64,000 nucleotides of DNA. Source: Negaprion brevirostris (lineage: Eukaryota). The position numbers and the translations under genes are program-made. The DNA lies in assembly GCA_030324005.1 (NCBI GenBank), contig JARDVH010000140.1:37505550-37569549 (forward strand). Direction: 5' to 3'. Below are positions 1 through 42,664 of this stretch, in pieces; the stretch's first letter is position 1, and every line of letters begins with the position of its first letter. Under the pieces are notes generated by a model, which made no database searches, was not told the origin of the DNA, and saw only the letters and a list, made by a program, of their open reading frames with translations.

Positions 1-283
1 TCACAAGTAGGCTTACATTAACATTGCAATGAAGTTACTGTGAAAATCCCCTAGTCGCCACACTCCGGTGCCTGTTCGGGTACACTGAGGGACAATTTAG
101 AATGGTCAATGCACCTAACCAGCACATCTTTCAGACTGTGCAAGGAAACCAGAGCACCCACAGGAAACCCAAGCAGATGCGGGGAGAAGGTGTAGACTCT
201 ACACAGACAGTAACCTAAGCCAAGAATCGAACCTGGGTCGCCTGGCGCAGTGAAGGTGCACTTTTAACCACTGTGCCACCCTG
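1..283 (-). mobile_element. tRNA-derived V-SINE (elasmobranch HE1-like)
   Basis: Reverse complement of the copy at 15146-15445; A/B boxes and V-domain present. Confidence 0.85.
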
Positions 284-18394: not shown

Positions 18395-18578
18395 GTTCAA
18401 TCTCNNNNNNNNNNNNNNNNNNNNNNNNNNNNNNNNNNNNNNNNNNNNNNNNNNNNNNNNNNNNNNNNNNNNNNNNNNNNNNNNNNNNNNNNNNNNNNNN
18501 NNNNNNNNNNNGCTGCTCAGCCAGTTCTGCCTCTAACTCACTGATTCGACCCTTCAGCTGAGAGATCAGGCGCTTGCT
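18395..18578 (-). CDS. HIP1: HIP1 coding exon (~exon 14), SKRLISQLKGRISELEAELAEQ...[107 N]...EIE(R)
   Basis: ttcag/gtaagt; both visible ends match HIP1; the 184-nt span including Ns keeps the frame. Confidence 0.92.
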
Positions 18579-21511: not shown

Positions 21512-21584
21512 CTCTACTTTAATACTCGCCATTTCCTCCTTCAGTGATGCAATCTCCCTGTAGAGCTGTTCAATCAATTTATCC
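21512..21584 (-). CDS. HIP1: HIP1 coding exon (~exon 13), DKLIEQLYREIASLKEEMASIKVE
   Basis: 73 nt, ccag/gtagg; start of the coiled coil; frame continuous with neighbours. Confidence 0.95.
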
Positions 21585-21984
21585 CTGGAAACAAAAAAAA
21601 GTTCAAGTATATAACAATGTTATAGTATTAACAACAAAATTTATTGTGGACTCAGATAATAATTAGAAAGCCAGCTAATGAACTTTAGCGAAAGTAATCA
21701 GGTGCCAGTCTACTTCAAAGCAACTGGTTTGCCACATTTAGAGTTAGATATTTCTTGAGCTAACTTTTAGTTAGACCTTACCCCTCTTGTCCCTTTTGAC
21801 AGGCACCTATTCAGGCAGGGCAAAGGATGCACGGCACCAGCTATCAACTGGGTCCTCACCATTCTTCATGTGTCATCTCGGACAGTAATGTTAAAGGCTA
21901 CTTAGTTGAACGGTCCCTGACAATCTCAACTTCAGTAGGAGTCATTGTAATTGTACAGCAGTCAGAAGCTGGAGCCTGGTTAAC

Positions 21985-22990
21985 TATCCCCCCTATCCAA
22001 GACCATTTCAAAATGTACATTAATGATTTGGAGGAAGGAACTGAAGGCTACTGTTGCTAAGTTTGCAGATGATACCAAGATACGTAGAGGGACAGGTAGT
22101 ACTAAGGAAACAGGGGGGCTGCAGAAGGACTTGGACAGGTTCGAAGAGTGGGCAAAGAAGTGGCAGATAGAATACAATGTGGAAAAGTGTGAGGTTATGC
22201 ACTTTGGAAGGAGGAATGGAAGCACAGACTATTTTCTCAATGGGAAAATGTTTAGAAAATCAGAAACACAAAAGGGACTTGGGAGTCATTGTTCAAGGTT
22301 CTCTTAAGGTTAATGTGCAGGTTCAGTCAGCAGTGAGGAAAGCAAAAGCAACGTTAGCATTCATGTCAAGAGGGCGAAAATACAAGAGCATGGCTGTACT
22401 GAGGCTGCATAAGGCTCTAGTCAGACCCCATTTGAAGTATTGTGAGCAGTTTTGTGCCCCATATCTAAGGAACGATGTGTTGGCCTTGGAAAGAGTGCAG
22501 AGGAGGTTCACAAGAATGATCCCTGGAATGAAAAGCTTGTCGTATGAGGAATGGTTGAAGACTCTGGGTCTGTACTCGTTGGAGTTTAGAAGGATGAGGG
22601 GGGAATCTTATTGAGACTTGCAGGATACTGAGAGGCCTGGATAGAGTGGACATGGAGAGGATGTTTCCACCAGTAGGAAAAACTAGAACCAGAGGGTATA
22701 ACCTCAGGCTAAAGGGATAATCCTTTAAAACAGAGATGAGGAGGGATTTATTCAGCTAGAGAGTGGTGAATCTATGCAACTCTTTGCCACAGAAGACTGT
22801 GGAGGTCAGATCATTGAGTGTCTTCAAGGCAGGGATAGATAGATTCTTGATTAATAAGGAGATCATGGGTTTATGGGGAAAAGGCAGGAGAATGGGGGGG
22901 GGGGAAATGAGAAAAATATCAGTCATGATTAGATGGCAGAGTAGACTCAATGGGCCGAGTGGCCTAATTCTGCCCCTATGTCTTATGGTT
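21985..22990 (+). mobile_element. CR1 LINE, RT C-terminal half to 3' tail
   Basis: KFADDTK RT motif, LQKDLDR, KCEVMHFG, LVRPHL, LGLYSLEFRRMRG; CR1 tail. Confidence 0.93.
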
Positions 22991-25416
22991 TTATTGACAG
23001 TCTCCACCTCGGGTGGAATTATTTGGTATAGATTGGGGATTGAACCTCATCTGTCACACAGTGCAGAGCACTCACCTGGTGTTGATCCTGGGAGTACTGT
23101 AGATAAGATTTCAATTAACCTTAATGTTTCTGTACTGAGCTTAAACATAGAAGTAAAACAAATTGCACACAGAAGATTCCAGTTGTTGAAAATGTGCGGG
23201 TTGCAGGTCTCTGATTTAAAAAGGTGATTCACTATTATGATATGAAACTTCTACAAAAGGAAACTTATTCCACTGGCCAATGGCATACTGAACAACAAAA
23301 CAGTATTGAGAATGCCTTAATCCAGGTGTTCTGCATCCAAAATTCAGAGTCAGGAAACAAAGCATATTTTGCCAAATGACAAAAGGTAAAATATTGTGGA
23401 TGTTGGAAATCTGAAATAAAGCAGAGGTTACAAACTCTTAAGCCCAGGTCTTCTTACATACATGCTACATTCTGACTAATGAAGAAATACAGAGTAGTGA
23501 AGATTTCATAAAAACTGAGGAACAAAGAATGAACTGTGATTTTAAAATAGGTGAGTCACAGTAGGTGCTGGTTAGAGGGGTGGAGGGGGCGATTTGGTGG
23601 TATTAAAGAAAAAGCAGTTTGGAAGATGGAGGGCAGAAATTTTATACACTGAATGATCTTCAAACATTAACACAATATAAAATTGAGACAATGGACTGAT
23701 GATATACCAGGTAGTTTAGTGAGCCAATTCGGACAGTTCATTCGACATACTCCTGTTTGCACCAGGTTAAAACTATAGTGATAGGACAGAGGAAGAACAC
23801 TAGCAACACAGAGAAAAAGAAATAATGGAGTCAATGCCCATTGTAATCATGAGCATTTATTTGGTTGTGTTACTGTACCTAATTTGGGATTGGCTATAGT
23901 GATCACAATATTTTCCGGTCTTGCTCCGCACCCACAATTTAATGAGTTCCTGGCTGCTTGCATGCAGTAATAGCTTTATTACTCCTGGCTATTCAATCCA
24001 GTACCTTTCTAGAATCTAGCAGACACTGAACCCTTCACTCATGGAAACAAGATTAACAAAATAGGATCAGTAACGATCAGCGTAATAACAATGGGAAATA
24101 TTTAAGGTTACTGGTGAAATTTTCTGTCCTGAAATATTTTTCCACCCCATTTCATGATCACCATGAACAACAAGAATACAGCAGAACGGTGCAAATCAAC
24201 ATTAAAATCTACCAGAAATGAACAACCGGTTCAATGATAAACACAACCCCCCTGTGTTAAAGGGCTGGTTGATGCAATGTATCTTTGGGATGACTTCCCT
24301 ATTCTCTCATTAATCAATGGAAGGTCTGATTCAAAGTTAAAAACAACAATGAGTATTGATTCAAGCCTGGAGGGATTCTGGGTATCATGTTCTATTCGGT
24401 CCTTAAATTCATGGAGGTCACTGCATTAGCGCACAGACCAATCATTAGTGACGAACTCCAGCATCACTTCTGTTGTTAAATGCACATTCTGTCATCATGA
24501 CTGTGAGCACCAAGAAGAAATCATCTTTACTGGAGCCAGGGTTCAGATAGCAGAGGTTCATTCAACCACATTTAGGGATTTGATATTGACCCATGGAAGC
24601 AAAATAGAAGAAAAGCAGATGCGGTAACTTTCACCCCTTAAGATACCTTTGATCTGATTTGAGAACTTATTGATTTGGATTGAACTAATGCTATCGATTG
24701 CCAGAATTACACTGACAGGCTTCCCAAGTCTTTGCTACAATTTCCACTGGAGAACTATCTATTGAACACTTGACTGGATGCAGATTGGTGAGATATTGTT
24801 CAGTGAAGAGAATAACCACATGAATTTCACCTAAAACAGGAGGTCACATACAAACCAAGATATTCTTCCACCTGCACAGGTTGGTAGCAGATCAACTGTT
24901 CCTTAGATTCGTTTTGTTTATGATATGAGAATTAAATACCTTTAGGATAAAGTCTCAAATTCATTCTGCAACACTGGGTGGAATGTTCTCGTTTTTTGTC
25001 AAAGTGTGAACTCAGGCGGGGAAAGTAGAGTATAGCTTGCCAGCTTTTCCAACCGTATTTGTAAACACTTGGAAAAAAGTGTGAGGGTGTGAGGGCCTGC
25101 TAAATACACTAAAATGTATCCAAATGGGGTTCCCGTCATTGCATAGCCGAAACTCCTTCACGTCACTGGTTGAGGGAAGAGTAGGGACAAATCAAGTGGA
25201 GAAGTCTCATCAGCCTAAAAGCCTTTCAGAATCCCACCATGATCCTTCGCCCCTCCACCATAAGCAGGGATGGAAATTTCACTTGCACTCTGCATGATCA
25301 GGAAGACTCACTGTCTGAGGCTTGCACACCACTACTCGGGAAACACATGGGGGCTACATTATCATCAATTATTAAACAACAAAGTCCAAGATTTTCATGA
25401 CATCCATATTCCTTAC

Positions 25417-25514
25417 CTTTCATCCTTAGACATTCCATTCTGGCTGTTAAAATTGAATGGGTCAGTAGGACCAGGACTTCCAAAGAGATCATCAAATTTA
25501 TTATCAAATAAATT
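25417..25514 (-). CDS. HIP1: HIP1 coding exon (~exon 12), NLFDNKFDDLFGSPGPTDPFNFNSQNGMSKDE(R)
   Basis: 98 nt, ttcag/gtaagg; FxDxF and DPF AP-2-binding motifs that HIP1 has and HIP1R lacks. Confidence 0.96.
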
Positions 25515-26099
25515 CTGAAAGGAAGAGGGTTAAACGTGATTAAAAGTAACCATGGCTAGTATATAGTGTGCAAGGTTTCAGTCTGTGTGCAGTTCACAGG
25601 TGCAAAGCCACGTCATCTCTCCAACCACTACAAGCACACAGGACACGCCTAAGAATGGGAGGAAGGTATTTAAGTTCTCAGCTGCTGAGTGATCTAGAAT
25701 CTGAAAACTTGAGTACCATGTTATTAATTCTAGGAGAGAAAAGGAAATGACATTGGGAAGTTGGGGTATGGATAACAAAGGAAATTATTTCCTCCACTTT
25801 TTGGTAAGGCCGCTGACTCATCCTGGAGCATAGTCAAGGCTCCAGTCACCCAACCAAGTAATCATTCTCTTATCTAAGCCCTAATGTCAGTAATCGTACT
25901 CAATTTTGAGGGTACCAGAGTTGCGCCTAATCATATATATTCATATCCATACTTTCTAAAAGGGTCATCATTGGAGGGGGAATGCTAGCTTTATCTGTGG
26001 CCAGGATTTTACAGCCCCACTGCAGTGCATCTTCCACCAGCAGATGCGATGATCCATTTAAATTGCAATTTATTTCACTGAGACAGTAATATTGCACTG

Positions 26100-26770
26100 T
26101 GCAGGAGGGGCCATAATGGTCGATGTCTACCAACATACAGGGGATGACCACAGACCAGAAACTGAACCAGGACACAAGGGCAGGTCATAGGCTGGAATTC
26201 TGTGGCAAATATCTCACCTCCCAACTCCCCAAAGCCTGTTCACCATCTACAAGGCACAAGTCAGGAGTACAATGGAATATTCTCCACTTGCCTGGTTCAG
26301 TGCAACTCCAGCACTCAAGAAACTCAATAGCATCCAGGCCAAAGCTGCCTGCTTGACTGGCATCCAATCCACCACTTAAACATTCAATCCCTCCAAAACC
26401 AATACATAGTGGCGGCAATGTGCACTATCTACAAGATGCTATCTAACAGCAACTCACCAAGACTCCTTCAACAGCATCTTCCAAACCCACATTCTCTACC
26501 ACCTTAAAAGGACAAGGGCAGCAGACAGATAGAAATATCACCAGCTGCAAATTCCCCTCCAAACCATTCTACCTTAGAAATTAATTGCCATTCCTTCACT
26601 GTTGCTGGGTCAAAATCCTGGAACTTCCTCCCTAACAGCACTGTGTAAGTACCCACACCACTTAGACGACAGCAGTTCAAGGTGGCAGCTCATCCCCACC
26701 TTCTCAAGATCAGTTAGGGATGGGTAATAGCTGAATAAACATTAGACTGGCCAGCGTCATTACATTCCCA
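26100..26770 (+). mobile_element. Non-LTR retrotransposon 3' fragment (CR1/L2 group); related copies at ~43000-43500 (-) and ~56850-57320 (+)
   Basis: Shared sequence ccatctacaaggcac...gaatattctccacttgcctg...cactcaagaa...atccagg. Confidence 0.7.
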
Positions 26771-26879
26771 GGAATTGAACCAAGACAGTCACAGCCTGTC
26801 TGTAGGGCACACTGCACAAGTCAGCTGAGTCCCTTTTCCTGAAGGCAATATATAGTATGCCCTGAAAGTGACAGAAAAT

Positions 26880-28830
26880 CCAGATAACAGAAAATGCTGA
26901 AGATACTCAGCAGGTCAAGCAGTATCTGTGGAGATAAACAGTGTTCACAAATTGTCTACAAACGTCTACAAGATGCACCAACAGCATCTCATCAATACTC
27001 CTTCGACTGCACCCTCCAAACCCACACTTTCTACCACCTCAAAAGGACATGGGCAACAGATAGATGGAGATTACAAATATTGACCTTTCATTAGAACCAG
27101 AAGTTAGAGACATAATGGTTTCTTTAAAAAGTACAGAGGCACGTAGGGGAAGAGAAGGATGGCAGTGCGGATGGAAAAAGAGGTTTGTGATATTGTGGAA
27201 AGCAGGAGATTAAATGACATAAGGAGTGGTGGAAAGGGCAAAAAGGAGTTGTAATCAAACAAAGAAAAAAAGATAAGTCAAGAGTAGTAAATATAACAAT
27301 GGCAGAATCATTATGAATGATAGCTGTCCGAGCAGATGGGGGTAATGATTACAATCTGAAATTGCTGAGTGTAATGTTGAATCTACGAATTTATGGTGAC
27401 GTCTATTCTAAGGAGCTATTTCTAAAGCTTATGTTCAGTTTCATCATAACAGTGCAGGAGGCTGTGGAGCCAAGTCAGAATGGGTAACGAATTAAAATGC
27501 CCTAAATCATGCTCATGGACTGAATGGAGGTGAGCCCAGAGGAATCACACAATGTGTGCTTAGATTCCCCAATGTAGGGAAACAGAAATAAAGTATACTA
27601 ATTTGAAAAGCCCCAGAAAGACTGTTTGGGGTCCTGGAAGGTGCGAGGAAAAAAGGTTAAAAGGGCAGATGTTGTATATCTCCTGTACTTGTGAAAAAGG
27701 GAAAGACCATTGTGTGGAATTGACACGATGCTGGGGAAGGAATGGTCCCTCTGGAATGCTGAAAATGGTGCTAGTTTTATTTGGTTCAGGCTGGCAGGAT
27801 TAAAGGGGAGGAGAAGGGAACTCGATCATGTTATAGAGAGGAGGGGGTGAGAGCAAAGATGTAGGAAATGGAAAAGGCACAGTGGAGGAAATCCTTAACT
27901 GAGCATAAAGGAAGATATAGCAGAAGCACTGTTATAAAAAGGTGGCATTGTCAGAACACAGATACAGCAGAGAAGGAGAAACTGGGAATATGGAATAGAA
28001 TCCTTGCAGGAAGCGGGGTGGGAAAAAGTATAGTCAAAGGTAGCTGTGGGAATTATTGGAGCTTGCAGTAGATACTGGTCGATAAATCATCTGTAAAATG
28101 AAGACAAAGAAGTTGAGGAAAGGAAGAAAATAATTTGAGGTGTATTATGTGAGAATGAATAGAAACTGGAAGCAAAATTAATGAAGTTTTTTAGTTCAGG
28201 ACGACAGCAGGAAACAGCACCAATAGTCATCAACATACAGGAATAAAAAGCAAGGGAGAGGACCTGCATTAGAACAAAGAATATTCCACATATCCCATTA
28301 AAAGGCAGGCATTGCTAAACTGATTTAGATTTCCAGAGCAATACCTTCTATTTAGAGAAAGTAGTGGAGTTAAAAGAGTTGTTGTTGAAGGTGAAAATAA
28401 ATTCAGCCAAGCAGAGGAGGCTAATGATGGATGGAGACTAATTGGACATGTGACCAAGGAATAAGGAGGATCTCAGGACAGCTCAATGGGGAATAAAGGA
28501 GTCGAAGGGCTGGACACACCTGGTGAGAAAGAGAAAGTTAGGATCAGGAAACCAGAAAATATCAAAGGAACTGAAGGGAATCAGAAGAGTCGCAGATGTT
28601 GAAGGGGAGAGGCTAGATTAGGAGAAAAAGTCGTCGAGCTAAGAAGAAATCAGATCTCTGCAGGAAGAACATGCTGAAACCATGGATCAACAAGGCAGTC
28701 CTGTTTGTGGGCTTTGGAAAGGTGGTAAAAGCAACTACTATGTTGGAGGTCAGTGAGGGAATATTTCCAGGCAAAATTAGATCAATGACAGTCCAGGTAA
28801 TGAAAGCTTGTTGTTTGGTGATGGTGTTCT
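26880..28830 (-). mobile_element. Degenerate Penelope-like element
   Basis: PLE terminus at ~26885; RT remnants (LMGYVE; IGAVSCCRPELKNFINFASSF). Confidence 0.65.
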
Positions 28831-31439
28831 AAGTATCCAGATACTACTTAGCCAGCAACTACTCAAAGTGAGCATGTATAAAAAAAATTTAAAAAGCAGG
28901 TGGGAACAATAACAATGATCATGCAAGAGAATGCTGATCTTCAACCTGGAGTGATCACCCCAACAACCTGCAGTTATATAACCCCTTTAACATAGTAAAA
29001 GATTCCCTAAGACACTTCACAGGAACAGCAAATAAAGCTGAACACCACAGCAGACAAGATGATTCAAAGATAAGTGATGTAAAGCTTTGTCAAAGAAGTT
29101 GATTTTAGGAAGTCTCTCAATAGGGCTGAAAGAGTTAAAGGTGGAGAGGTTTAGGGGGAGATTGCCAAAGCTTAAGACTGAGATAGCTGAAGTTATGAAG
29201 GGAACGGCAGCCTTGCAGTTGAAGACAGGTACCCTCTGAAGATGACAAACTTGGCTAGCAAACAAACATGTACATGAAAGGCCAAAATGCAGATTGTGGG
29301 ATTGCATGGTGGAAGTTGGCAGGCCAATCATGTGAGCACATATGTGACAGTACAACAGCAAGGTGATCCACTTGGATTTCCCAATTATTATTTCAATTCT
29401 GGCATTACAGAATCTATCCATACAGTCTATGGTCAATCTGATAGCGGATTTGGAGAGCTGCTGGACAGACTGAATTTTTATTCAGAGGCCGTACCTACTC
29501 ATGATTTTTTTGCTTTTCACAGAAATGGAACTGTGGCAGCTACTCTCGTGAAATAAAGATGCAATCTTCTGCAGTCACGACTCAGCCACACAAGTTCCAC
29601 AAAGCCCTCCTGGAGCAGATCCGTACAGAATACTAAAGATTCCAGACTGGGTCCAGATGAAAGCACTGCTCTCCTAATGGATGCAGCTAATAATCCTTCA
29701 AACCTCTATAGCAAAGCAATACATAAAACTGTTCAGAGAGAAAGCAATTATCACTATGGTAACAATTCCACCTCTGTCGCAATGTCTCTCCTATACATTA
29801 ATCCTCTCTACCGCATGATGATAAAAGATTCAAAAAGAAAAAAAATGTTCACAATTTCACAAGTCTCTTTTCAACTGTCGGTTCTTTTCAACATTTACTA
29901 TACATTCTGTTAAAGAAAAAGGAAGGAAAAACTTTCCCTATTATAAGCTTTCCATCTGTACTTCACTTATTTGCATTATAATCCAACTTCTGCAACAGTC
30001 CCCTTCCCTACATAAATCCTATATCTGTCCAAAGCCATCTCCTTCTCTGTTACAAGCCACAAACTATTGCATCCCCAGGCCAAAAACTTAATATTTAGTG
30101 AAACAGGAGTATGACTCAGAATCAAACATTACTTTGCATTAGTTTGATACTTTTAAAATGTTATGCGATCATATCCAAATTCTAATTTATCTTGTATAAA
30201 ATACAAGAATGAAGGGCGTGTAGTTTTCACAATGAAATTAGTCACCTCATGACATTCCTTACGCTATGAAATATACATAATTATAGACACGAGTCAAAAG
30301 GCCAGTTTCAAGCTTGCCACTGACAAGCTAACTGATCTTTTTACACAACCCCCAGATTTACTTTGGTATCTGAGGGAAAAATGAATCAGCTCCCATTTAG
30401 GCTTGGGGGTGACAGAGCGGAGGCGGGGTTGGAGGAGTTGGGGGCGGGGGGGGGGGGTGAAATTAAGGGTCCAAATTGAACACACCTTTACACTGTGAGG
30501 AGATCACTTTTCTTTCATTGTTGAAAGGTAGGCTACCAAGACAGCATGGGTAAAATCTTAGCTGACAGCCGAGTTTACAACTAACGGATCCCTGAGGCTT
30601 TCCATTTGTTTCATACATGCAGTAATTTGCATGAATAATCGCTTTGACCACAGGACAGCTTAGGTGCCCCCAGGAACCATCAGGCCGTGAAATGTACAAG
30701 ACCTTCCCCCGTTTTGGTAAACATTATAAATCACCAGGACCCTATGATTCTATGACTGCAATAATAACCCTGCAGCTGATCTTATGTTAAGAAAAGTGAC
30801 TTGCAAATTAACCCCGACAAGCTGAATGTCTAGAACAATGCATACATTTTTGAAAAAGGAGGGTTCTATTTTAAAGCACTTGAGAAGCAGCTAAGGAAAA
30901 GGATTTGGAGATGAAATTATCAGCACAGGTTCAGAAGGCAGTAAAGTGGTAAAAACCATTAAACCAGCATTTCCAAAAAAGAATCTTGGCCTCCATTTTT
31001 TCAAAGTGCACTGTATGTGATGATTCTGTTCTTGCCTATTTACACCTTGCCGAGACACATCTTTTGTTTCTCGATTTGCCCCCATCATATCCTTTTGCCT
31101 TGCACCATTACACCTTCTGTTATTTAAATCACTCCTGCTTTTCACTCTATCAAACACCTTTTTTGTTCTTTCCTCCCTTTCCATCTTTCCCCGTCTCTAT
31201 ATTTACTTAAAATACGTTGCAGGTTTTTCAGCTCTGATCAAAGGTCATTAGCTTTGTTTCTCTCTTCACAAATACTGACTGACCTGCTGAGGATTTCCAG
31301 CATACCATCTGTTTTTATATTATGAAAGGATCTGGATGTTAGCACTGAGCACCCGAAGAGCCAATTTACCCAATTACCTCTGAAGTAGATCAGTCAGAAG
31401 AATTAATGCTGACATTTTATAAATCAAATGAGAATAAGA

Positions 31440-32505
31440 AACAACAAGTGGCAATAAAAAAATCGGTGGGGATGGTATACAGATCACCAAACTGTAGTGG
31501 TAATGTTGGGAAAAACATTTGACAGAAAATCAGAGATGCATGTGCTAAAGGAACATCTGTGATTATGGGTGACTTGAATTTACCAATAGATGGGGAGAGT
31601 CAAATGAGTCACAATGCAACAGAGGAGGAATTTCTGGAGTGCATACAGGATGGTTTTCTGGAGCAATACACTGAGGAACCAATAAGGGAGTAGGCCATCT
31701 TGGACTGAATGTTGTGCAATGAGAAAGGATTAGTTGGCAATCTAGTTGTAAGAAAACCCTTGGGGACAAGTGATATAATATGATAAAACTCTTTGTCAAG
31801 GTGTGTAATGATGTAGTTGACTCTGAGATGACGGTCCTGAATCTCAATAAAGATAACTATGATGGATGACGAATTAGCCATGGTGGATTGGGAAACATTA
31901 CTGAAAGGAAGGACAGGCAATGGCAGGCATTTAAAGAATGAATAGATGAACTCCAGAAGTTGTTCATTCCTGATTGGCACAGGAATGGTAAGGGAATTGG
32001 GGCCAAACCATGGCTTAGGAGGGAAATGAGAGATAGTATCAGATTCAAGAAAGAAGCATACAAACTGGCAAGAAAAAGCAATAGGCATGAGGATTGCGAG
32101 CAGTATAAAATTCAGCAAAGGAGGACCAAAGGATTGATTAAGAAGAGAAAAATAGCGTATGAAAGTAAGTTAGTGGGGAACATAAAAACTGACTGTAAAA
32201 GTTTCTTTAGATATGTAAAGAGAAAAAGATTGACAAAAACAAATTTAGGCCCCTTATAGTCAGAAAGAGGAGAATTCATAATGGGGAATAAAGAAATGGC
32301 TAAGGGATTAAATTTGTACTTTGCTTCAGTCTTCACAAAGTAAGACATGAATAATGTATCAGAAATGCTGAGAGAAAACTGTTTCAGTGAGGATCTGAAG
32401 GAAATCAGCATCAGCAGAGAAATAGTTTTGGGGAAATTGATGGGATTGAAGGTGGTTAAATCTCTAGGCCCTGATTATCTTCATCCCAGAATACTTAAGG
32501 AAGTG
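31440..32505 (+). mobile_element. CR1 LINE ORF2 fragment (endonuclease/linker)
   Basis: IMGD.N, KPWL, IK...KSFFRYVKRKR and KS.GPD.LHPRILKEV motifs. Confidence 0.88.
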
Positions 32506-32506
32506 A

Positions 32507-33300
32507 TGATGTGGAAATGCCAGTGTTGGACTGGGGTGGGGACAGTATTTTCTCATGACACCAGGTTAAAGTATACCAGGCTTATTTGGAATCATGGTCA
32601 CTGCATCTTCCTCAGGTGAGTGGAGAGTTGGGCATATAGAGACAGATACAACTGCAAGATAATTTGGAGTCTGAGTCTTTCCAGATAATCAAGTCTTTAC
32701 AGGTGCAGACAATGAATGGAGAGAGGGATAATCACAGGTTAAAGAGGTTTGAATTGTCTGAAGCCAGGACAGTTAGTAGGATTTTGCAAGTCCAGGCCAA
32801 ATGGTGGGGGTTACACATAATGTGACATGAACCCAAGATCCCGGTTGAAACCATCTTCATGTGTGCGGAACTTGGCTATCAGTTTCTGCTCAGCGATTCT
32901 GCGTTGTCGTGTTTCGTGAAGGCTGCCTTGGAGAATGCTTCCCAGAAGATCAGAGGCTGAATGCTCTTGACTGCTGAAGTGTTCCCCAACAGGAAGAGAA
33001 CACTCCTGCCTGGCGATTGTCAAGCAGTGTTCATTCATCCGTTGTTGTAGCGTCTGCATGGTCTCTCCAATATACCATGCCTCCGGATATCCTTTCCTGC
33101 AGTGTATCAGGTAGACAATGTTGGCCGAGTTGCAAGAGTCTGTACCGTGTACCTGGTGGATGGTGTTCTCACGTGAGGTGATGGCATTCATGTTGATGAT
33201 CCAGCACATCTTGCAGAGCTTGCTGTGGCAGGGTTGTGTGGTGCTTTGGTCACTGTTCTCCTGAAAGTTGGGTAATTTGCTGCGGACAACTGTCAGTTTG
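32507..33300 (-). mobile_element. Penelope-like element 3' part (GIY-YIG endonuclease plus terminal repeat)
   Basis: NIVYLIHCRKGYPEAWYIGETMQTLQQRMNEH...PVGEHFS...EQKLIAKF...G.NRD is a PLE GIY-YIG domain. Confidence 0.92.
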
Positions 33301-34039
33301 AGGTAGGGCGGTTTTGAAGGCAAGAAGGCAAGAGAATACTTGGAGGGGATTTGAGGAAAAACACTTTCATCCGGAGGTGGGAACATTCACAACATTTAAG
33401 AAGCATTTTGATAAGCATTTGAAAAGCCAGAGCATACAAGGCTACCGACCAAGTGCGAGAAAATGGGCTAAGGATAGTGTGCAAACACAATGGGCTGAAG
33501 GGCTTCTTTTTGTGCTATAAGATTCTGACCCTAGAATCAGGTTGATTAGCCATGACTTATCATTTACAAATCCATGCTCTCAACGAGCAGCTCACGTCTG
33601 ACCCAGGGCTCAGTCATGCCATCCCTAATCGGCAGCTATTGTAGTTAAAACTCATGTTACCAACTGAAGGGAGTTACCAGCCACAACTGCAGTCCCGTAG
33701 ACATTTTAATCACTGATGATTCAGAAAGAATTTCCACCGAGAAGTGCACCAAGATTATTTGCAGCCTGAAACATCTCTATCTTCATGCTGCAACAAGAAT
33801 TCAGTGTTTTCTTCATTATTTCAAATATTTTCAAAACAAACTGGAAAATAAATCCCACTAATTCAAGGGGCCAGATGGGGAAAAATACAGACACACCTAT
33901 TGATGTAATCACAATTCCTATTGTCTTAATTCATTCGACCATTATTCGTGATTCTAATGTGTGTCCCCACAAATAAACCTTTTGTGTGTTTGTCACACAA
34001 GGAAATCCAATTTCCTTTGAAATGATGAGAAGGGAAGAG

Positions 34040-35130
34040 TCAGAGAGCAGAGTCCCCTCACTGTCCTTCTGTGCTGCACAGTCCCTGCACTCTCGCTCCC
34101 TGCGGCATGGTCCCCGCACTCTCCCCGTGTGCAGCATAGTGCCCACAATCTTCCCCTGTGAGCGACACAGTCCCCGCACTCTCTCCCTGGTGTGCGGCAC
34201 GATCCCCGCACTCTCTCCCTGGTGTGCGGCACGATCCCCGCACTCTCCCCCTGGTGTGCGGCACGATCCCCGCACTCACCTCCTGTGCTGCACAGTCCTG
34301 CACTCTCGCTCCACGTGGCATGGTCCCTGCACCCTCTGTGTGCGGCACAGTGCCCGCACTCTCCCCGTGTGTGGGGACGGTCCCTGCGTTCTTCTTGTGT
34401 GCATGGCACGGTTCCCGTACTCTCACCATGTGCAGCACGGACCCCGCAGTCTCCCCATGTGAGTGCGGCATGATCCCTGAACTCTCCCCATGTGCGGCAC
34501 AGTTCCCGCAGTCTCCCCGTGTGTGCAGCACGGTCCCCGCACTCTCCCCGTGTGGGGCACAGAACATTTACTGTCCCTGTGTGTGTGGGGCATGCTCCCC
34601 GCCCGGGTACGGCACGGTCCCTGGACTCTCCCCCTCAGTGTGGGGTACAGTCCCTGCACTGTCCCCCTGTGTGTGCGGTACAATCCCCGCACTCTCCCCG
34701 TGTGTGGGGCACAGTCCCTGCACTCTCTCCCCCTGGGTGTGGGGGTTCAATCCCAGGACTCTACCCCTGGGTGTGGGGGTTCAGTCCCCGCACTCTACCT
34801 CTGGGTGTGGAGGCTCAATCCCCGCACTCTACCCCTGGGTGTGGGGTACAGTCCCCGCACTCTCCCCCTGTGTGTGCGGTACAGTCCCCGCACTCTCCCC
34901 CTGGGTGTGGGGTACAGTCCCCGCACTCTCCCCCTGGGTGTGGGGTACAGTCACCGCACTCTCCCCCTCTGTGTGGGGTACAATCTCCCACAGTCCCCCT
35001 GTGTGTGCCGTACAGTCCCCACACTCTCCCCCTGGGTGTGGGGTACAATCTCCCACAGTCCCCCTGTGTGTGGGGTACAATCCCTGCACTCTCCCGCTGG
35101 GGGAGGGTTCAATCCCCGCACTCGCTCCCC
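34040..35130. repeat. GC-rich minisatellite, ~31-33 bp unit (cacagtccccgcactctccccgtgtgtgcgg-like)
   Basis: Roughly 30 degenerate tandem units visible; explains the many overlapping repetitive ORFs here. Confidence 0.92.
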
Positions 35131-35700
35131 CTGCACTGCCGCTGCTGTGAGTCGCTCCGGAAGGCTTGGAGCCGGGCACTTTAATCGTGACCTCGGGTTG
35201 TTTGACGGAAACATTTAGGTGTTGCAGCGGGAGCCGGGCTGGAAATTTGGGGATTTAGATTCCAGAGATTGGGAAAAAGGAAACACCACCGGGAGCAGGA
35301 GGAGGATCAGCGAAGGGCCCGGGAGCAGCGGAGAGGAGCGGCCGGCTGGCCGGCTCTGGGTGAGAGGACATGGCCGGCAACTTCTGGCAGAGCTCGCACT
35401 AGTGAGTGTTTGATCTCCCGGGGGTGTGAGGCCTAAAAAAAATACAGCAGCAGAAAATGTGCAAGAAAGCCCAATCTTCCAGGCAGTTATTTCCAAAAGT
35501 TGTCCCGCTTCTTATTTTAAGCTGCAGGCTTTGCACTTCGTTCTGGCCCGTGATGATTTTTTTGTTGCGCTGGAAACGGCATCAAAATTGTGGCCTTTCT
35601 CCCTCTTCCAGGATCTTTAAAACAAACCGGCTCAGACTGGGATGGATATCCAAACCATCCACTGGGCTGCGGGGGACGGGGGGGTGGGGGGAGCTGGTGG
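35100..35700 (+). promoter_or_regulatory. CpG-island-type promoter and 5' UTR of CCNC
   Basis: GC- and CpG-rich stretch in an otherwise CpG-poor window, surrounding the CCNC ATG; ETS-like CCGGAAG at 35157-35163; no obvious TATA box. Confidence 0.75.
35370..35401 (+). CDS. CCNC: Cyclin C coding exon 1, MAGNFWQSSH(Y)
   Basis: gacATGG Kozak context, the invariant cyclin C N-terminus, donor TA|gtgagt. Confidence 0.93.
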
Positions 35701-36479
35701 AAAGAGATATCAAATAACCTGAACAAACGGGAGCACGCTGTGTTGGGCTAGAAGAGGGTTGCCAGTCCAGAAATAAAAAAAAACAAGACCAATCTGCAGT
35801 ACCTGTATTTATAAACGTCTTCAGAAAAGCTCAAATGTATCTGACATGTTATCACAACCCAGCTGATATTATAGGACTGTAGGGACAGGGGTGGAATTGA
35901 AATTGTGAAGACCTAATGCTGTGATTGACCAAAAGATAGCTTGGCGAGTGAGGTTCTGAGCACTTGTATAGTTTTTGACTTTGAGTGTTACTGTGTTCAC
36001 AGTTTTGAGGTTCTAAGGCTGTGGCTGTGGGTTTTGAATATTTATTTAGGCCTGAGATGTGTTTCATGGAATGCATGTAAAAGTGTATTCTCTAGAATGA
36101 GATACATTTTATGGATCTTGTAAAGACACAGCTATACTGAGTGGAGTTGTATCTATATAGAAAGTAAGATAATCCATCTTATTATTTAAATGTAAAAGGG
36201 CTTATGTAGTAGCTGGCTTGATTTCCATCCTAATAATGGTGCATTTCAGTCTGGCTGCTTGAAGTCAGTTGTCGGCCACTCTGCTCGATAAAGAGGCAAA
36301 TGAAAGTAAAACATACCTTGTGAGAGAAGATGAGCTGTACAAAGCTGATTAAAGTTAACAAAAGTGCATTGACTGATAATTAAGTGATATTTCTGTATAA
36401 CTACTAAAGAAAGGCTTGAGCAGTTTGATTGTTTCCAGAGTTATATAATCAATCCTAATGCAGTGAAGTAAAATGTACA

Positions 36480-38400
36480 AATATACAAAACAGGAGCAGG
36501 TCATTTGGCCCCTCAAGCCTGCTCTGCCATTTGATACAATCATAGTTGATCTGATTGTGGCCTAAATTCTACTTTCCTGTCTGCTCACTGTGCCTGGGGT
36601 TGCGAGACAGCAGTGCTTACCACTGTGTTGCCATGCTTCCTGCATCTTAAATGAGAGTCCTCTTACTTTTAAACAGTGTCTCCTAGTTATAGTTTCCCCC
36701 ACAAGAGAAAATATCCTTTCAGCATCCACCGTGGTTCCAAGTTCCTGCAGGATCTTGCATGTCAAATCAAAGTGTTTCAATAAGATTAAATTTCATTCTT
36801 CTAACTTCCAATGGAGACAGACCCCTTCATCCTAGTTGAGTGGATCTTTTCCAAACTGCTTCTAATGCAGTTATTTCCTTTCTTAAATAAGAAGACCAAA
36901 AATCATAATATCCCTACAGTGCAAAATGAGGCCATTTGGCCCATTGAACCTTCACTGACAACTATCCCACCCAGGTCCTATCTGTAATCTCGTGTCTACC
37001 CTGATATTCCCCATGACACTAAAGGGCAATTTAGCATGGCCAATCAGCCTAACCCACACACCTTTTGAGTGTGGGAGGGAACCAGAGCACCCAGAGGAAA
37101 CCCATGCAGACATGGGGAGAACTCCACACAGACAGTGACCTGAGGCCGAAATTGAACACGGACCACTGGTACTGTGAGGTAGCAGTGCTAGCCAAATGTA
37201 CAGAAGACTCTGGATATGGTCTCACCAATACCCTGTACAACTGCAGCAAATATTCTATTTATATTTCATTCACATTACAGTAAATGACAACCTTCCATTT
37301 GTCTTCCTGATCACTTGTTGTACCTTCATACTGACTTTTCCTGATTCATGCACCAGTACACCCAGATTTCTTTTCAGAGTTCCATAATCTCTCTTCACCT
37401 AAGTAATATGCTGCTTCTCTCTTCTTCCTGACAAAATGGACAAGTTCACATTTTCCCATGTTATTAGCCACCTGCCAATTTTTTTCCTCATCCGCTTAAC
37501 CAATGTATATCCCTTTGCAGACTTGCATTCTCTTTACAACTTACTGTCGTACCTACCTGTGTGTCATCAACAAATTTAGCAACCATGCATTGGACCCTTC
37601 ATCCAAGTCATTGATATAGATTGTAAGTAGTTGAAGCCTGTAGCACTGATCCCCGTGGTACTCCTTTTATGCCTATTCTCTGTTCCCTGTAAGCTAACTA
37701 ATCCTATATCCATGCTAATATGTAACCCCCTACAGTAACTGTTCTTATTTTGTGTAGCAACCTTTGATGTGACATCTTATCAAATGCGTCCTGGCAATCA
37801 AGTGCAGCATATCCTCAGGTTCTTCTTTATTGATGTTGCTTGTTACTTCTTCAAAGGACTCTAATAAATTAGTCAAACACAATTTTACTTGTGAAAAACC
37901 ACATTGACTCTGTCTGATGGCATTGAGATTTTTAAGTGGCCTGCAATAACCTCCTTAATAATAGATTCCAGCATTTTCTAGATGTTAAGCTAACAAGCCT
38001 GTAATTTAAGCCCCTAGGATGAAGCCTATCAGCACCTAGGGACTTTTTGGCCTTTAGTTCTGATAATTTTCTCAATATCCTTTCCCCAGTGATTGTAATT
38101 ATTTTAAGTTCCTCCCTCAATGATTAATCTCTTGATTTACAATTATTTCTGGGATATTATTTATGTCTTCTGCAGTGAAGACGGGCACAACATATCTGTT
38201 CAATTCACCCACCATTTTATTTTTTTCCATTATTAGTTCCCCAGACTTTCTCTCCAGGGGACCAGTGTCGCATTTTTTATTTTTTTTAATGTTTTGTCCG
38301 TTGTTCCGACCTGCCATTAATTTTTGCAGAATTATATGCCTTTTCTTTCAATTTGACACTATCTTTAACTCTGTTAGCTAGCCATGGATTGTGTGTCCTG
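36480..38400 (-). mobile_element. Degenerate CR1 LINE in CCNC intron 1
   Basis: LLQLYRVLVRP, KFVDDT, KS.G.D.LHPR and NYR.VSLTS remnants; CR1 tail at ~36485. Confidence 0.85.
36905..37192 (-). mobile_element. HE1-type V-SINE inserted in a CR1 LINE (CCNC intron 1)
   Basis: Reverse-complement match to 45556-45848; CR1 sequence continues on both sides. Confidence 0.8.
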
Positions 38401-38489
38401 AACATTGGACTATTCTCCCAAGTGACTTCTTAAATTGCTTTGTTTATCTCTCCCCAAACTGATTCAATACCTTAAAGCTTAGAACCAAT

Positions 38490-40660
38490 TCAATTCAATT
38501 TTATTGTCACTGTATAGTGCACAGATACAACAAGAAGTGAACTTGCAGGCTCCCAAGGTACAAAGAAAAAAGCAAATACAGTAGTCATTATAAAATAATG
38601 TCAATAGTCATTAAGTGTACATGCATATTACACAATACCCATTGCGTGGGAATATGTTAAAGGACGGAATTCAGCTGGGTAACAGCTCTGGGGAAGAAGT
38701 TGTTTCTGAGCCTGGTTGTATGGGCTCAAATGCACCGCCCAGATGGCAGGGAGGCAAACAGTCTATAGATGGCATCTCTAATAATGCTGAGAGATCTCCG
38801 CAGACACCGTTTGTGATAAATATCCTGGATGGCTGGTAGCGGGGTGCCGATGATGTATTGGGTAGTTTTGACTACCTGTTGCAGAGCTTTCTGAAGCAAC
38901 TGCCTATCACACCATAATGCAGATTGACAAAATGCTCTCTATTGTGCACCGGTAGAAGTTTGAGAGAAGCTGGAGGGACAGGTTGGGTCTCTTTAGCCTC
39001 CTCAGGAAGTATAGGCGCCACTGAGCCTTTTTCACTATGGAGGAGGGGTTGAGGTGCCATGAGAGGCCCTCTGTGATGAGGATGCCCAGTAGTTTGAAGT
39101 TTCCACCTCTACCCCATTGATGTAAATGGGGGGTGTGTACTGCCTCTGGAGTTCCTGAAGTCCACACTGAGTTCTTTGGTTTTCTTAGTGTTGAGGGCCA
39201 GGTTGTTCCAGCACCCCACGTCACCAGATGTTGGACCTTTTCCCTGTAGGCTGACTCATTGTTATTCGTGATCCGGCCCCACCACTGTAGTGTTGCCCAC
39301 AAACTTGATGATGGTATTGGGGCCACAACAGTCAGGGAGTAGAGAATGGGCTCAGCACGCATCCTTGTGGAGCCCCAGTACTGGGGGAGGTGAGGTTACC
39401 TAACCTAACAGACTGGGGCTTGTTGGTCCAGTCCAGGGTACAATTAGAAAGATAGGTGTTGACTCCTGGGTATGGAGTTTCTAGACAAGCTTGTTGGGGA
39501 TGATGGTGTTAAATGCTGAGCTGTAGCCAACGAGCAGCATTCTAATGTACGTGCCTTTGCCTTCCAAATGGGTCAGAGTGGAGTGAAGAGTAGTAGGAAT
39601 AGCATCTTCTGTTGACCTGTTTGCACTACAGGCAAACTGGTGCTGGTCGGGATTGGCAGGGACGTTGGCTTTTAGGTGAGTCAGGAGCAGTCTCTCAAAG
39701 CGCTCATTATAATGGGGATGAGTGCAATAGGGTGTGGTCATTCAGGCTCGTCACATTTGGCACAGGAACAATGGTTGTACGCTGTGGGGACCACCGCCCA
39801 GGCCAGTGACAAGTTGAAGATATCAATAAAGACCTCGGCCAGCTGATCAGCTGGGAGTCTGTACTGTTGTAGAAATGGTCCTCAATCTGTTGTGTGTGGT
39901 TATGTTTGGCATTCGTGATGGCCATTGTCAGGTTAGACCTGGGCCACAATGTCATGATGTCGCCAGATTTGAATGCTACGTTTCATATCTTCAGCAGTGA
40001 ATGAACTCCCCGTTCATCAAAGGCTTTTGGCTGGAAAATGTCTAAATGTTCTTGTGGGTTATGACATTCTGTACTCAAAAATGTATGTAGAGTAAAACTG
40101 TGGATGCGTATTCCTCAATGTCTGTGTGAGAGTCCAGTGTGGCTTGCCAAGCAAATGTACTCTAGTCAGTGCATTCAAAGCAGTCCTGAAGTTCATCATC
40201 TGCCCCCGCTGGCTATACTTTGACAGTCCTTACAGATAGCTTGACTCGATTATTAGAGGTTTGTACGCAGGAACTTGGAACAAAGAAAAGTGGTCCAACT
40301 GCCTGAGGTGGTGGCAGAGTACGGTCTTATATGCGTCCGCCATGTTATATAAACATGATCCAGTGCGTTCACACCTCTTGTAGGGCAAGAGACATTCTGG
40401 TGGAATTTTGGCAATATAATCTTGAGGTTTGCTTGATTGAAGTCCCCAGCGACAATGAATGCTCTGTCTGGGTATGCTGTTTGAAGTTTGCTAATGGCAC
40501 AGTGTAGTTCTTTCAGTGCTAATTTAGCATTAGTATGTGGTGGAATATACATCACGCTGATGATAACAACTGTAAATTCCCAAGGCAAATAGAAAGGCCT
40601 ACACTTCGCCATGAGGAATTCCATTTCAGCAGAACAGTGCTTCACGATAACCAAGATCAT
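38490..40660 (-). mobile_element. Rex1/Babar-type LINE (EN + RT remnants) in CCNC intron 1
   Basis: KCRPFYLP.EF, IVAGDFNQANL, TRG.N.LDHVY, QFA...NRSTEDAI, YSSAFNTIIP.KL, KKAQ.RLYFLRRLK. Confidence 0.9.
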
Positions 40661-40927
40661 CTCTCTCTATTGTACTCATGTCATCCTTAATTAACAGAGC
40701 CTCCGCCTTTACCTAGCTTCCTGCCCTTCTGAAAAGTCCTGTACCTTTGAATATTCAGGTTCTTATGGCAGTATTCTATTCCAAGCTTCAGGTGATGACA
40801 AGTCCTCTGAATTCCTTATAAAATTAACTTGTAATATACTGAAACTTGTAATTTGTCTGCTGAGCATTTTATTGTCATGTATCACTGTTTTAAATACTAT
40901 ACCAAGTTTGTGTTTGTTCTGTCTCAG

Positions 40928-41034
40928 TTTACAGTGGATCCTTGACAAGCAAGATGTAATGAAGGAGAGGCAGAAAGACTTGAAGTTCCTAACAGAAGAA
41001 GAATATTGGAAGTTGCAAATATTTTTTGCAAATG
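40928..41034 (+). CDS. CCNC: Cyclin C coding exon 2, (Y)LQWILDKQDVMKERQKDLKFLTEEEYWKLQIFFAN(V)
   Basis: 107 nt, ctcag/gtaatg; near-identical to vertebrate cyclin C; in frame with exon 1. Confidence 0.96.
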
Positions 41035-41802
41035 GTAATGCTGTTCATCAGTGTTTCTGTCAGTTGTTGTTCGACAAGGAGATTGTTTTCCAAGAAACAT
41101 TGCTTTATTTTGGAGATACAACGAAATATTTCCCTCGTTTGATGGCTTCTTTGCTAGCATTCCTCATAGGCCTTATATTTTTGGGCAAGTTGTGAATTGT
41201 GAGATATAGCCACTGTAACCTTTCACGCCAGTAATTTCCATTTCCTAGAGAGAACACTAAAACACTCCCCTTTATTAACCAGATACAGCATATTTCACAG
41301 TCTATATCATGATGAAGGTGGGAAGGAGATAAATAGTTGTTTTTTAAGTCACCATTTTATTTTCAAATCGTTGGTGGTTCTGCTTCCACCACCTTCGTGA
41401 ACAGCAAGTTCCTGGTCATTACCAGTCACTGTGGGGAAGAAAAACTTTCTACATGTTCCCCTTGCATCACTTGCCCAAAACCTTAAATCTGTGTTAAATA
41501 GGACAGCATTAAGTTACACCACATGGGAAACTGTAGATATAGCAAAGAGGAGAGTACTGTCGTACTGCATAATATTGTGGATGCTGGAAATCCAAAATAA
41601 ACATTGGAAACGCAGAAAAGAAAACGCAGTACAACAGTTATGACTTCAAAAAAAGTTATTAAGTTTTACATCTTGTGACTACTAAGACAAATTAAAGTCA
41701 AGAGCTTGATTAAGGTGCAGTGTTGTATCCACCTCAATTTAATGCCTGTGCACATGGTGAGCAAACATTGTCGATAAACATTCCCTCTTGTCTTAACAAT
41801 AG

Positions 41803-41887
41803 TAATCCAAGCTCTTGGGGAACATCTCAAACTGAGGCAGCAAGTTATTGCAACTGCAACAGTCTACTTCAAGAGATTCTATGCCAG
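41803..41887 (+). CDS. CCNC: Cyclin C coding exon 3, (V)IQALGEHLKLRQQVIATATVYFKRFYA(R)
   Basis: 85 nt, atag/gtaagg; cyclin-box helix motif RQQVIATATVYFKRFY; no later CCNC exon recognised in the window. Confidence 0.96.
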
Positions 41888-42520
41888 GTAAGGTACTTCT
41901 TAAATTTTATATTAAACTCTTCTGTCACCATATACTGGAACATAACACACCACTTGTAGTTGACTCTTGTATATATCTTGGTGCTTAATCCATTCCATAA
42001 CCGTATCCTACACCTGTTGCAACAAAGGTACAGATAATTATGAGCACTACACCGTTTGCAATTGGTGTTTATCTGGCATTTTTGACAGCTACAACAGCCA
42101 TTTAAGAACATAAGAAATAGGAGCAGGAGTAGGCCATCCAGCCCTTCGAGCCTGCCCCACCATTCAATAAGATCATGGNNNNNNNNNNNNNNNNNNNNNN
42201 NNNNNNNNNNNNNNNNNNNNNNNNNNNNNNNNNNNNNNNNNNNNNNNNNNNNNNNNNNNNNNNNNNNNNNNNNNNNNNGGCCAAATGGACAAGTTACAAG
42301 AACATCTTAACGTGTGGTGAACAATGGCACGTTAACCACAGCAAAGCTTACACAGCTACACCAGTCCTCACAAAGCTCCACTTACCATTCAAAGCAATCA
42401 CCTAAATCGGCCAAATGGACAAGTTACAAGAACATCTTAACGTGTGGTGAACAATGGCACGTTAACCACAGCAAAGCTTACACAGTTACACCAGTCCTCA
42501 CAAAGCTCCACTTTCCATAC

Positions 42521-42664
42521 CTGCTGGGATGAGGAGTTCATCTCCACCAGGTCATCGGTTTCCACAACCGGCTCGCTGTCGGGAGAGGTGGACTCGACAG
42601 GGATGACCACAACAGGGCTGACGTGCTCCGATAACGCCGAGGCTCGCAGGAAGTTAGGAGGATT
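42521..42664 (-). CDS. HIP1: HIP1 coding exon (~exon 11), NPPNFLRASALSEHVSPVVVIPVESTSPDSEPVVETDDLVEMNSSSQQ
   Basis: 144 nt, gcag/gtatgg; NPPNFLRASALSEH.SPVVVIP is diagnostic; LVEMN sits at the position of the human LMDMD clathrin box. Confidence 0.97.

What the first reader, a model, noticed from the sequence alone, without database searches (positions are those of the whole stretch)
35100..42178. Promoter and first three intact exons of cyclin C nested antisense inside a HIP1 intron
Seen: consecutive HIP1 exons at 42521-42664 and 25417-25514 splice in phase, yet the intron between them carries a plus-strand CpG island and three CCNC exons (32, 107 and 85 nt). These have canonical splice sites and an unbroken 75-codon frame. 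CCNC has its own TE-filled introns, so it is not a retrocopy. There is no N run between 20531 and 42178, so HIP1 exons 12-13 and the CCNC exons share one contig. CCNC stops at a 100-N gap, and no further CCNC exon was recognised downstream. Known: in human, CCNC lies beside PRDM13/USP45 on chr6 and HIP1 is on chr7. Inference: this is (a) a DNA-level duplication of the CCNC 5' end into HIP1, (b) a relocated full CCNC whose remainder is hidden in the gap, or (c) a repeat-mediated contig misjoin. One misjoin plus scaffolding would be enough to produce the picture.
Basis: partly seen in the sequence, partly recalled or inferred. Interest (0 to 1): 0.85.

Follow-up and report, generated by a model that had tools for sequence, protein, structure and literature searches.

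The report
Misassembled cyclin C inside HIP1 intron
The start of this shark's only cyclin C gene appears inside an intron of the unrelated HIP1 gene, while the end of the same gene sits at its usual place on another chromosome-scale scaffold, so the nesting is most likely a genome-assembly error and not real biology.

Summary
CCNC exons 1-3 (35370-35401, 40928-41034, 41803-41887) lie antisense between two consecutive HIP1 exons, with no N between them and the downstream HIP1 exon. They are not an extra copy. The assembly shows exactly one intron-containing copy of each of 12 CCNC coding exons: 1-3 here (C140), 4-10 on five small unplaced contigs, and 11-12 on scaffold C25 between PRDM13 and TSTD3/USP45-like/PNISR exons, the usual vertebrate order. 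Together they encode an intact 283-aa cyclin C. Exons 11-12 share a sized-gap piece with the last TSTD3-like exon, so whole-gene relocation is very unlikely. The N-free run carrying HIP1 and CCNC exons (21,648 bp) is the longest of 139 runs examined (median 2.3 kb). No listed contig from four sequencing runs bridges its CR1/Penelope repeat pair (31503-33387), and the piece upstream of the CCNC promoter shows no doubled depth. Best reading: a chimeric contig, probably joined in a repeat (about 0.88). A very recent collapsed duplication or a real breakpoint allele is not excluded (about 0.1), because no read spans or breaks the junction. A processed CCNC pseudogene sits at the C25 locus where exons 1-10 are missing.

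The parts
20531..42178 (.). N-free run (21,648 bp), inferred chimeric contig: HIP1 intron/exons on the left, CCNC 5' end on the right
   Evidence: longest of 139 N-free runs in 464 kb held, median about 2.3 kb, next longest 10.3 kb
25417..25514 (-). HIP1 coding exon (about aa 337-369 of a 1040-aa shark HIP1)
26174..26730 (.). old high-copy interspersed repeat; 26254-26615 not bridged by a listed contig (lesser candidate for the join)
31435..32506 (+). CR1-type LINE fragment (type recalled), 80-85% identical to other copies, cut off at 32506; in 11 of 13 other copies LINE sequence continues downstream
32507..33327 (-). Penelope-like element fragment (GIY-YIG-type reading recalled from its translation), very high copy; favoured site of the join
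   Evidence: (summed contig depth above 300,000 in X1)
33374..33530 (+). 3' tail of a LINE that is not the continuation of the 31435-32506 fragment
34052..35133 (.). 29/33-bp GC-rich minisatellite directly upstream of the CCNC promoter; a 17-nt core motif matches only here in the assembly
   Evidence: 5 of 5 exact matches in the window
35134..35450 (+). small CpG-rich CCNC promoter / 5' UTR region (promoter function inferred)
   Evidence: 5' UTR from 35309 matches the processed pseudogene
35370..35401 (+). CCNC exon 1, coding part (32 nt)
40928..41034 (+). CCNC exon 2 (107 nt)
41803..41887 (+). CCNC exon 3 (85 nt)
42100..42178 (.). young dispersed repeat (86-99% to listed copies, most 95-99%) at which the contig ends in CCNC intron 3
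42179..42278 (.). 100-N scaffold join, taken as unsized; no end overlap across it
42279..42518 (.). 130-bp tandem duplication at the start of the next contig, in the HIP1 intron
42521..42664 (-). HIP1 coding exon (about aa 288-336); 100% identical to named shark HIP1 proteins

Best explanation
These three exons are the start of the animal's single working cyclin C gene, and they most likely appear inside HIP1 only because the assembly joined two unrelated pieces of DNA. Shown: one intron-containing copy of each CCNC coding exon, with exons 11-12 at the PRDM13-TSTD3-PNISR locus on C25 and exons 4-10 on small unplaced contigs. Inferred: a contig from CCNC's 5' end (about 9 kb, from about 33.4 kb to 42178) was fused through a dispersed repeat to a HIP1-intron contig, probably in the CR1/Penelope pair at 31503-33387. 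The fused contig was then scaffolded into HIP1 by its larger HIP1 part, which left the CCNC end facing the 100-N gap. In the animal, exons 1-12 would be one ordinary gene of at least 35 kb, head-to-head with PRDM13.
For: (1) A search with the processed pseudogene gave 12 matches: itself plus exons 1-11, each once; exon 12 follows exon 11 on C25. All splice sites are AG/GT, and the 852-nt CDS gives 283 aa with no internal stop, 270 of 271 aligned residues identical to a bamboo-shark cyclin C. (2) C25 order: PRDM13 (-) 44.32 Mb; CCNC exons 11-12 (+) 44.417 Mb; rhodanese/TSTD3-like exons (-) 44.432-44.440 Mb; one UCH-family exon (+) 44.58 Mb (E 2.8e-4); PNISR (+) 44.62 Mb. This is the human order (passages of PMC9114330, and of 10.1101/2023.01.04.522723). 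(3) CCNC exons 11-12 and the last TSTD3-like exon (about 44,432,345) lie on one piece, 44413744-44434599, with only sized gaps. (4) In a ray and a bamboo shark, CCNC and PRDM13 are on records of the same length (252,427,829 and 138,146,672 bp), and HIP1 is on other records (61,123,421 and 51,250,956 bp). (5) The N-free run is an outlier, 21.6 kb against a median of 2.3 kb. (6) In 4 of 4 runs, unique contigs stop at 31499-31502 and restart at 33388-33487; none listed bridges this stretch. (7) The LINE left of the Penelope element lacks its 3' half, and the right flank is another element's tail. (8) The depth of the 33.4-34.0 kb piece is not doubled in any of 4 runs, e.g. X1 6.66 against 4.1-8. 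(9) Window exons carry the conserved residue at both positions where the pseudogene differs.
Against: No read or contig was seen to break at a junction or to continue into the true flank. An unbridged repeat is expected from short-word contigs whether or not the join is real, and the tool lists only the longest pieces and warns that a hole proves nothing. No contig end on C25 44.14-44.50 Mb overlaps 25400-35308 at high identity (best 80%). The repeats in the stretch are old, 76-85% identical to held copies, which makes a simple graph misjoin less easy than in a young repeat. Three other unbridged places (26254-26615, 26933-27029, the minisatellite) could hold the join. Depth over the CCNC exons themselves was not measured, and contig depth is a poor copy-number measure. 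The closest relatives' CCNC positions were not obtained; only the ray and the bamboo shark were.
Confidence: 0.88

Rival explanations
1. A very recent DNA-level duplication placed the CCNC promoter and exons 1-3 into the HIP1 intron. The two near-identical copies collapsed into one contig that took the HIP1 flank. The copy would drive a truncated transcript antisense to HIP1.
For: The sequence is N-free from HIP1 exons to CCNC exon 3. A collapse would also leave C25 without exons 1-3. The Penelope/LINE mosaic could be a real insertion boundary.
Against: No second copy or diverged variant of 33500-35400 or 40600-42178 in the assembly except the processed pseudogene. No doubled depth on the 33.4-34.0 kb piece in 4 of 4 runs. 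The fragmentation of exons 4-10 shows that the locus was poorly assembled anyway.
Confidence: 0.06
2. The join is real in the sequenced animal: a translocation or rearrangement allele with one break in this HIP1 intron and one between PRDM13 and CCNC, assembled in place of the normal allele.
For: Single-copy depth and an N-free join are both compatible with it.
Against: HIP1 exons on both sides are intact and scaffolded in order on C140. CCNC 3' exons remain beside PRDM13 and TSTD3-like exons on C25. Such alleles are rare compared with misjoins in an assembly with 96,185 pieces (inference).
Confidence: 0.04
3. The whole CCNC gene moved into the HIP1 intron, and exons 4-12 are hidden in the 100-N gap.
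For: Exons 4-10 are on unplaced contigs (20,988 bp in total) that could fit an unsized gap.
Against: The only exons 11-12 are on C25, on a sized-gap piece with the last TSTD3-like exon and 95 kb from PRDM13. CCNC and PRDM13 share a record in a ray and a bamboo shark.
Confidence: 0.02

Closest known systems
Vertebrate CCNC at the FAXC-COQ3-PNISR-USP45-TSTD3-CCNC-PRDM13 locus (human 6q16)
   Same: Intact 283-aa protein from 12 coding exons; 3' end between PRDM13 and TSTD3/USP45-like/PNISR exons in the order given for human in passages of PMC9114330 and 10.1101/2023.01.04.522723.
   Different: In this assembly the gene is split over 7 sequences (C140, five small contigs, C25). The second paper also notes that zebrafish ccnc sits beside faxca with other neighbours, so the order is not fixed in all vertebrates.
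Repeat-mediated chimeric contig in a fragmented short-read assembly (general knowledge)
   Same: Outlier contig length, two loci from different chromosome-scale scaffolds, repeat mosaic between them, missing counterpart at the home locus.
   Different: The breakpoint is not pinned by reads, and the repeats are old rather than near-identical.
True nested antisense genes in introns (e.g. OMG/EVI2A/EVI2B in NF1; recalled)
   Same: A multi-exon gene with its own promoter on the opposite strand within one intron.
   Different: A true nested gene is complete within the intron. Here only 3 of 12 exons are present, and the last two are on another scaffold.

Membership tests
Cyclin C (CCNC) orthologue | High identity to named cyclin C proteins | tested here: met
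   70-73 of 74 residues for exons 1-3; 270 of 271 and 268 of 271 aligned residues for the full set
Cyclin C (CCNC) orthologue | Complete exon set with canonical splice sites and open frame | tested here: met
   12 exons, 852 nt, no internal stop, spread over 7 assembly sequences
True nested antisense gene | Whole gene contained within the host intron | tested here: not met
   exons 11-12 on C25 beside TSTD3-like exons and PRDM13
True nested antisense gene | Physical continuity of both junctions shown by reads | tested here: inconclusive
Partial gene duplication (segmental) | Second genomic copy of the duplicated exons and introns | tested here: not met
   only the window and an intronless pseudogene match; searches score best candidates only
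Partial gene duplication (segmental) | Doubled read depth if copies are collapsed | tested here: inconclusive
   not doubled on the 33.4-34.0 kb flank in 4 of 4 runs; depth over the exons not measured
Retrocopy | Loss of introns | tested here: not met
   window copy has 5.5-kb and 0.77-kb introns; the C25 copy is the retrocopy
Chimeric contig | Two parts belong to different chromosome-scale scaffolds by gene content | tested here: met
   HIP1 on C140; rest of CCNC at the PRDM13 locus on C25; separate records in two other cartilaginous fishes
Chimeric contig | Drop of spanning reads or pairs at a breakpoint | not testable with these tools
   all 24 listed runs are held as contigs, none as raw reads

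The most novel reading that the evidence does not exclude
The join is real DNA: a very recent duplication or rearrangement put the intact CCNC promoter and exons 1-3 antisense into a HIP1 intron of this shark, giving a new constitutive antisense promoter inside HIP1, and the two CCNC 5' copies collapsed in the assembly.
Probability: 0.1. Interest if true: 0.5.

Novelty: not a real feature. Interest (0 to 1): 0.08.

Why it matters
As biology it probably does not matter: CCNC and HIP1 look like ordinary intact genes. In practice it flags an assembly defect. An annotation of this genome would report a truncated CCNC inside HIP1, a pseudogene at the true CCNC locus and a broken CCNC 3' end, which could be misread as gene loss or pseudogenisation of the Mediator kinase-module cyclin (role recalled) in a shark. 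It also shows that 'no N in between' does not prove adjacency here. If the join were real, it would be a young promoter capture inside a conserved gene, of moderate interest.

Tried and rejected
Cyclin_N family search: 30 matches, none in the window; it did list the pseudogene. PRDM PR-domain and zf-UBP searches gave no match near C25 44.3-44.6 Mb; PRDM13 was found by its long last-exon ORF instead. SIM_C matches on C25 at 30.4 Mb: same scaffold, 14 Mb away, not used as close synteny; SIM1 versus SIM2 not checked. Looking for the true flanks: no near-identical partner for 31380-33560 (best 88% on a short piece, 40 of 21,236 candidates scored), 33500-35400 or 42279-42520; none among C25 44.14-44.50 Mb contigs. 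End overlaps between successive CCNC pieces: 1 of 6 (21 nt, C50087 to C57571). Strand skew of 8 unique pieces was too noisy to place the join. Pfam scan of 150 of 162 minus-strand ORFs at C25 44.42-44.45 Mb: one rhodanese hit, one sub-cut-off chance hit; two more TSTD3-like exons came from a recalled motif scan only. Cluster look-up of 10 more cyclin C proteins found no further shark record. No RNA holder on record was listed, so expression and splicing from exon 3 to exon 4 were not tested. The minisatellite as a dispersed join site is disfavoured because its motif matches only here. Literature: 'cyclin C + shark + HIP1' gave 0 papers; some searches were seen as listings only and showed nothing on this locus; passages were read for three papers; no supplements were opened. 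Four look-ups of earlier findings returned nothing.

Full report
Observation. On the plus strand are CCNC exon 1 (coding 35370-35401), exon 2 (40928-41034) and exon 3 (41803-41887). All have canonical sites and give an open 74-codon frame that matches named cyclin C proteins at 70-73 of 74 residues. On the minus strand, exons 42521-42664 and 25417-25514 splice in frame and cover consecutive residues of a named shark HIP1. There is no N from 20531 to 42178, then a 100-N gap. The CpG-rich promoter region is small (35134-35450, o/e 0.75); the GC-rich kilobase before it is a minisatellite. The window is G000:C140:37505550-37569549 in an assembly of 2.69 Gb and 96,185 sequences.

Where the rest of CCNC is. 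A search with 40600-42178 found the window itself, repeat hits, and one place on C25 where exons 2 and 3 are adjacent. That place is a processed pseudogene on a 956-bp piece between two 100-N gaps, with an in-frame stop. It differs from the exons at 23 of 816 coding bases. At 11 of its 12 amino-acid differences the exons carry the outgroup residue; the twelfth has no outgroup column. Used as a probe, it gave 12 matches: itself; exons 1-3 in the window; exon 4 on C5706; exons 5-7 on C96147; exon 8 on C50087; exon 9 on C57571; exon 10 on C96058; and exon 11 on C25. Exon 12, with the stop and 3' UTR, follows exon 11. Each exon occurs once with AG/GT sites, and the 852-nt set encodes 283 aa, 270 of 271 aligned residues identical to a bamboo-shark cyclin C. 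So the window holds the only intron-containing 5' end of an intact gene, not a spare copy. These searches score only the best candidates, so the counts are lower bounds.

The home locus. On C25 (122.5 Mb), a 501-codon ORF at 44,320,642-44,322,144 (-) is PRDM13. CCNC exons 11-12 are at 44.417 Mb (+). Rhodanese-type exons follow on the minus strand at 44.440, 44.437 and 44.432 Mb (Pfam hit; the other two by a recalled motif). One weak UCH exon lies at 44.58 Mb (+), and PNISR at 44.62 Mb (+). The names TSTD3 and USP45 are inferred from domain and position. This is the order given for human 6q16 in passages of PMC9114330 and of 10.1101/2023.01.04.522723. The latter also says that zebrafish ccnc has other neighbours. 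Passages of PMC13679780 place regulatory sites between PRDM13 and CCNC. A caveat: a 956-bp pseudogene parked just upstream of exon 11, in the same orientation, suggests scaffolding guided by transcripts or homology, so the order across 100-N joins may not be independent evidence. However, CCNC exons 11-12 and the last TSTD3-like exon share one piece (44,413,744-44,434,599) that has only sized gaps. I take sized gaps to come from read pairs (inferred). Independently, CCNC and PRDM13 lie on records of identical length in Mobula hypostoma and in Chiloscyllium plagiosum, and HIP1 lies on other, shorter records. Whole-gene relocation into HIP1 is therefore very unlikely.

The suspect contig. N-free runs in 464 kb of held sequence have a median of about 2.3 kb. 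The run 20531-42178 (21,648 bp) is the longest of 139, and the next is 10.3 kb. Contigs of four public runs were laid on 25300-34050: X1 is essentially identical to the window and may be its source, and X5, X6 and X11 are about 96-97% alike. Unique pieces tile 25300-31502 and 33388-34050. No listed piece bridges 26254-26615, 26933-27029 or 31503-33387. The last interval holds a LINE fragment (31435-32506) cut where a Penelope-like element begins (32507-33327). In 11 of 13 other copies LINE sequence continues past that point. The sequence right of the Penelope element is a different LINE tail, with only two weak hits among those 13 loci, neither in place as their 3' end. The two flanks therefore do not form one insertion site. 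This fits a join of two loci but also an old deletion. The piece at 33.4-34.0 kb has depth 6.66, 14.3, 6.35 and 7.9 in X1, X5, X6 and X11, against 4.1-8, 10.5-19.7, 8.2-9.5 and 6.2-11.8 for the pieces to its left, so it shows no doubling. The minisatellite motif occurs only here, so that piece probably belongs with the CCNC promoter, but this link was not bridged independently.

Limits. All 24 listed runs are contigs, not raw reads. Such contigs break at repeats whether or not the join is real, and only the longest pieces are listed. Depth over the CCNC exons was not measured. No true flank was found for either side. The repeats are old (76-85% to held copies), which makes the exact route of a misjoin unclear; a gap-filling step is a guess. 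The misjoin is thus inferred from gene inventory, synteny and contig anatomy, and is not shown by reads.

Mechanism and verdict. Most likely (0.88), a CCNC 5' contig was fused through a repeat to a HIP1-intron contig, and the chimera was scaffolded into HIP1 by its larger part. Exons 4-10 stayed unplaced, and the pseudogene took their place on C25. Rivals: a collapsed very recent duplication (0.06), a real rearrangement allele in the sequenced animal (0.04), whole-gene relocation (0.02). A search for 'cyclin C', 'shark' and 'HIP1' together found no paper, and four look-ups of earlier findings were empty. Novelty: not a real feature. Interest 0.08.

Noticed in passing
L017:1385-2284 (G000:C25:44412744-44413643): Processed CCNC pseudogene, 2.8% diverged over 816 coding bases, one in-frame stop, on a 956-bp piece between two 100-N gaps, placed 3.8 kb upstream of the real exon 11 in the same orientation; probably placed there by transcript- or homology-guided scaffolding.
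   Followed up: partly
window 20354-20430 and 20531-20607: The 77 bases before the 100-N gap are identical to the 77 after it, so this gap is an overlap of adjacent contigs rather than missing sequence.
   Followed up: partly
window 42279-42518: 130-bp unit repeated 1.8 times (98%) at a contig start beside a HIP1 donor site; no match elsewhere in the assembly; real tandem copy or contig-end artefact.
   Followed up: partly
window 34052-35133: 1.08-kb GC-rich minisatellite directly upstream of the CCNC promoter, with a gradient from 29-bp to 33-bp units; one relative's contig runs 552 letters past 34039 without being laid further.
   Followed up: partly
window 18405-18620 and between 18513 and 17162: A HIP1 exon match ends next to the 107-N run, and HIP1 residues of about 416-455 have no match in the window, so an exon may be lost in a gap.
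   Followed up: no
L073:642-2144 (G000:C25:44320642-44322144) and 44.319-44.336 Mb: PRDM13 sits in a broad domain of low GC but high CpG o/e (0.6-1.1) over about 17 kb.
   Followed up: no
G000:C25:30.37-30.40 Mb: SIM_C matches lie 14 Mb from PRDM13/CCNC, whereas SIM1 is recalled to be within about 1 Mb in human; rearrangement or scaffolding effect; gene identity not checked.
   Followed up: no
window 28646-28903: One relative's contig (X5) skips about 258 bp here, an indel between species or individuals.
   Followed up: no
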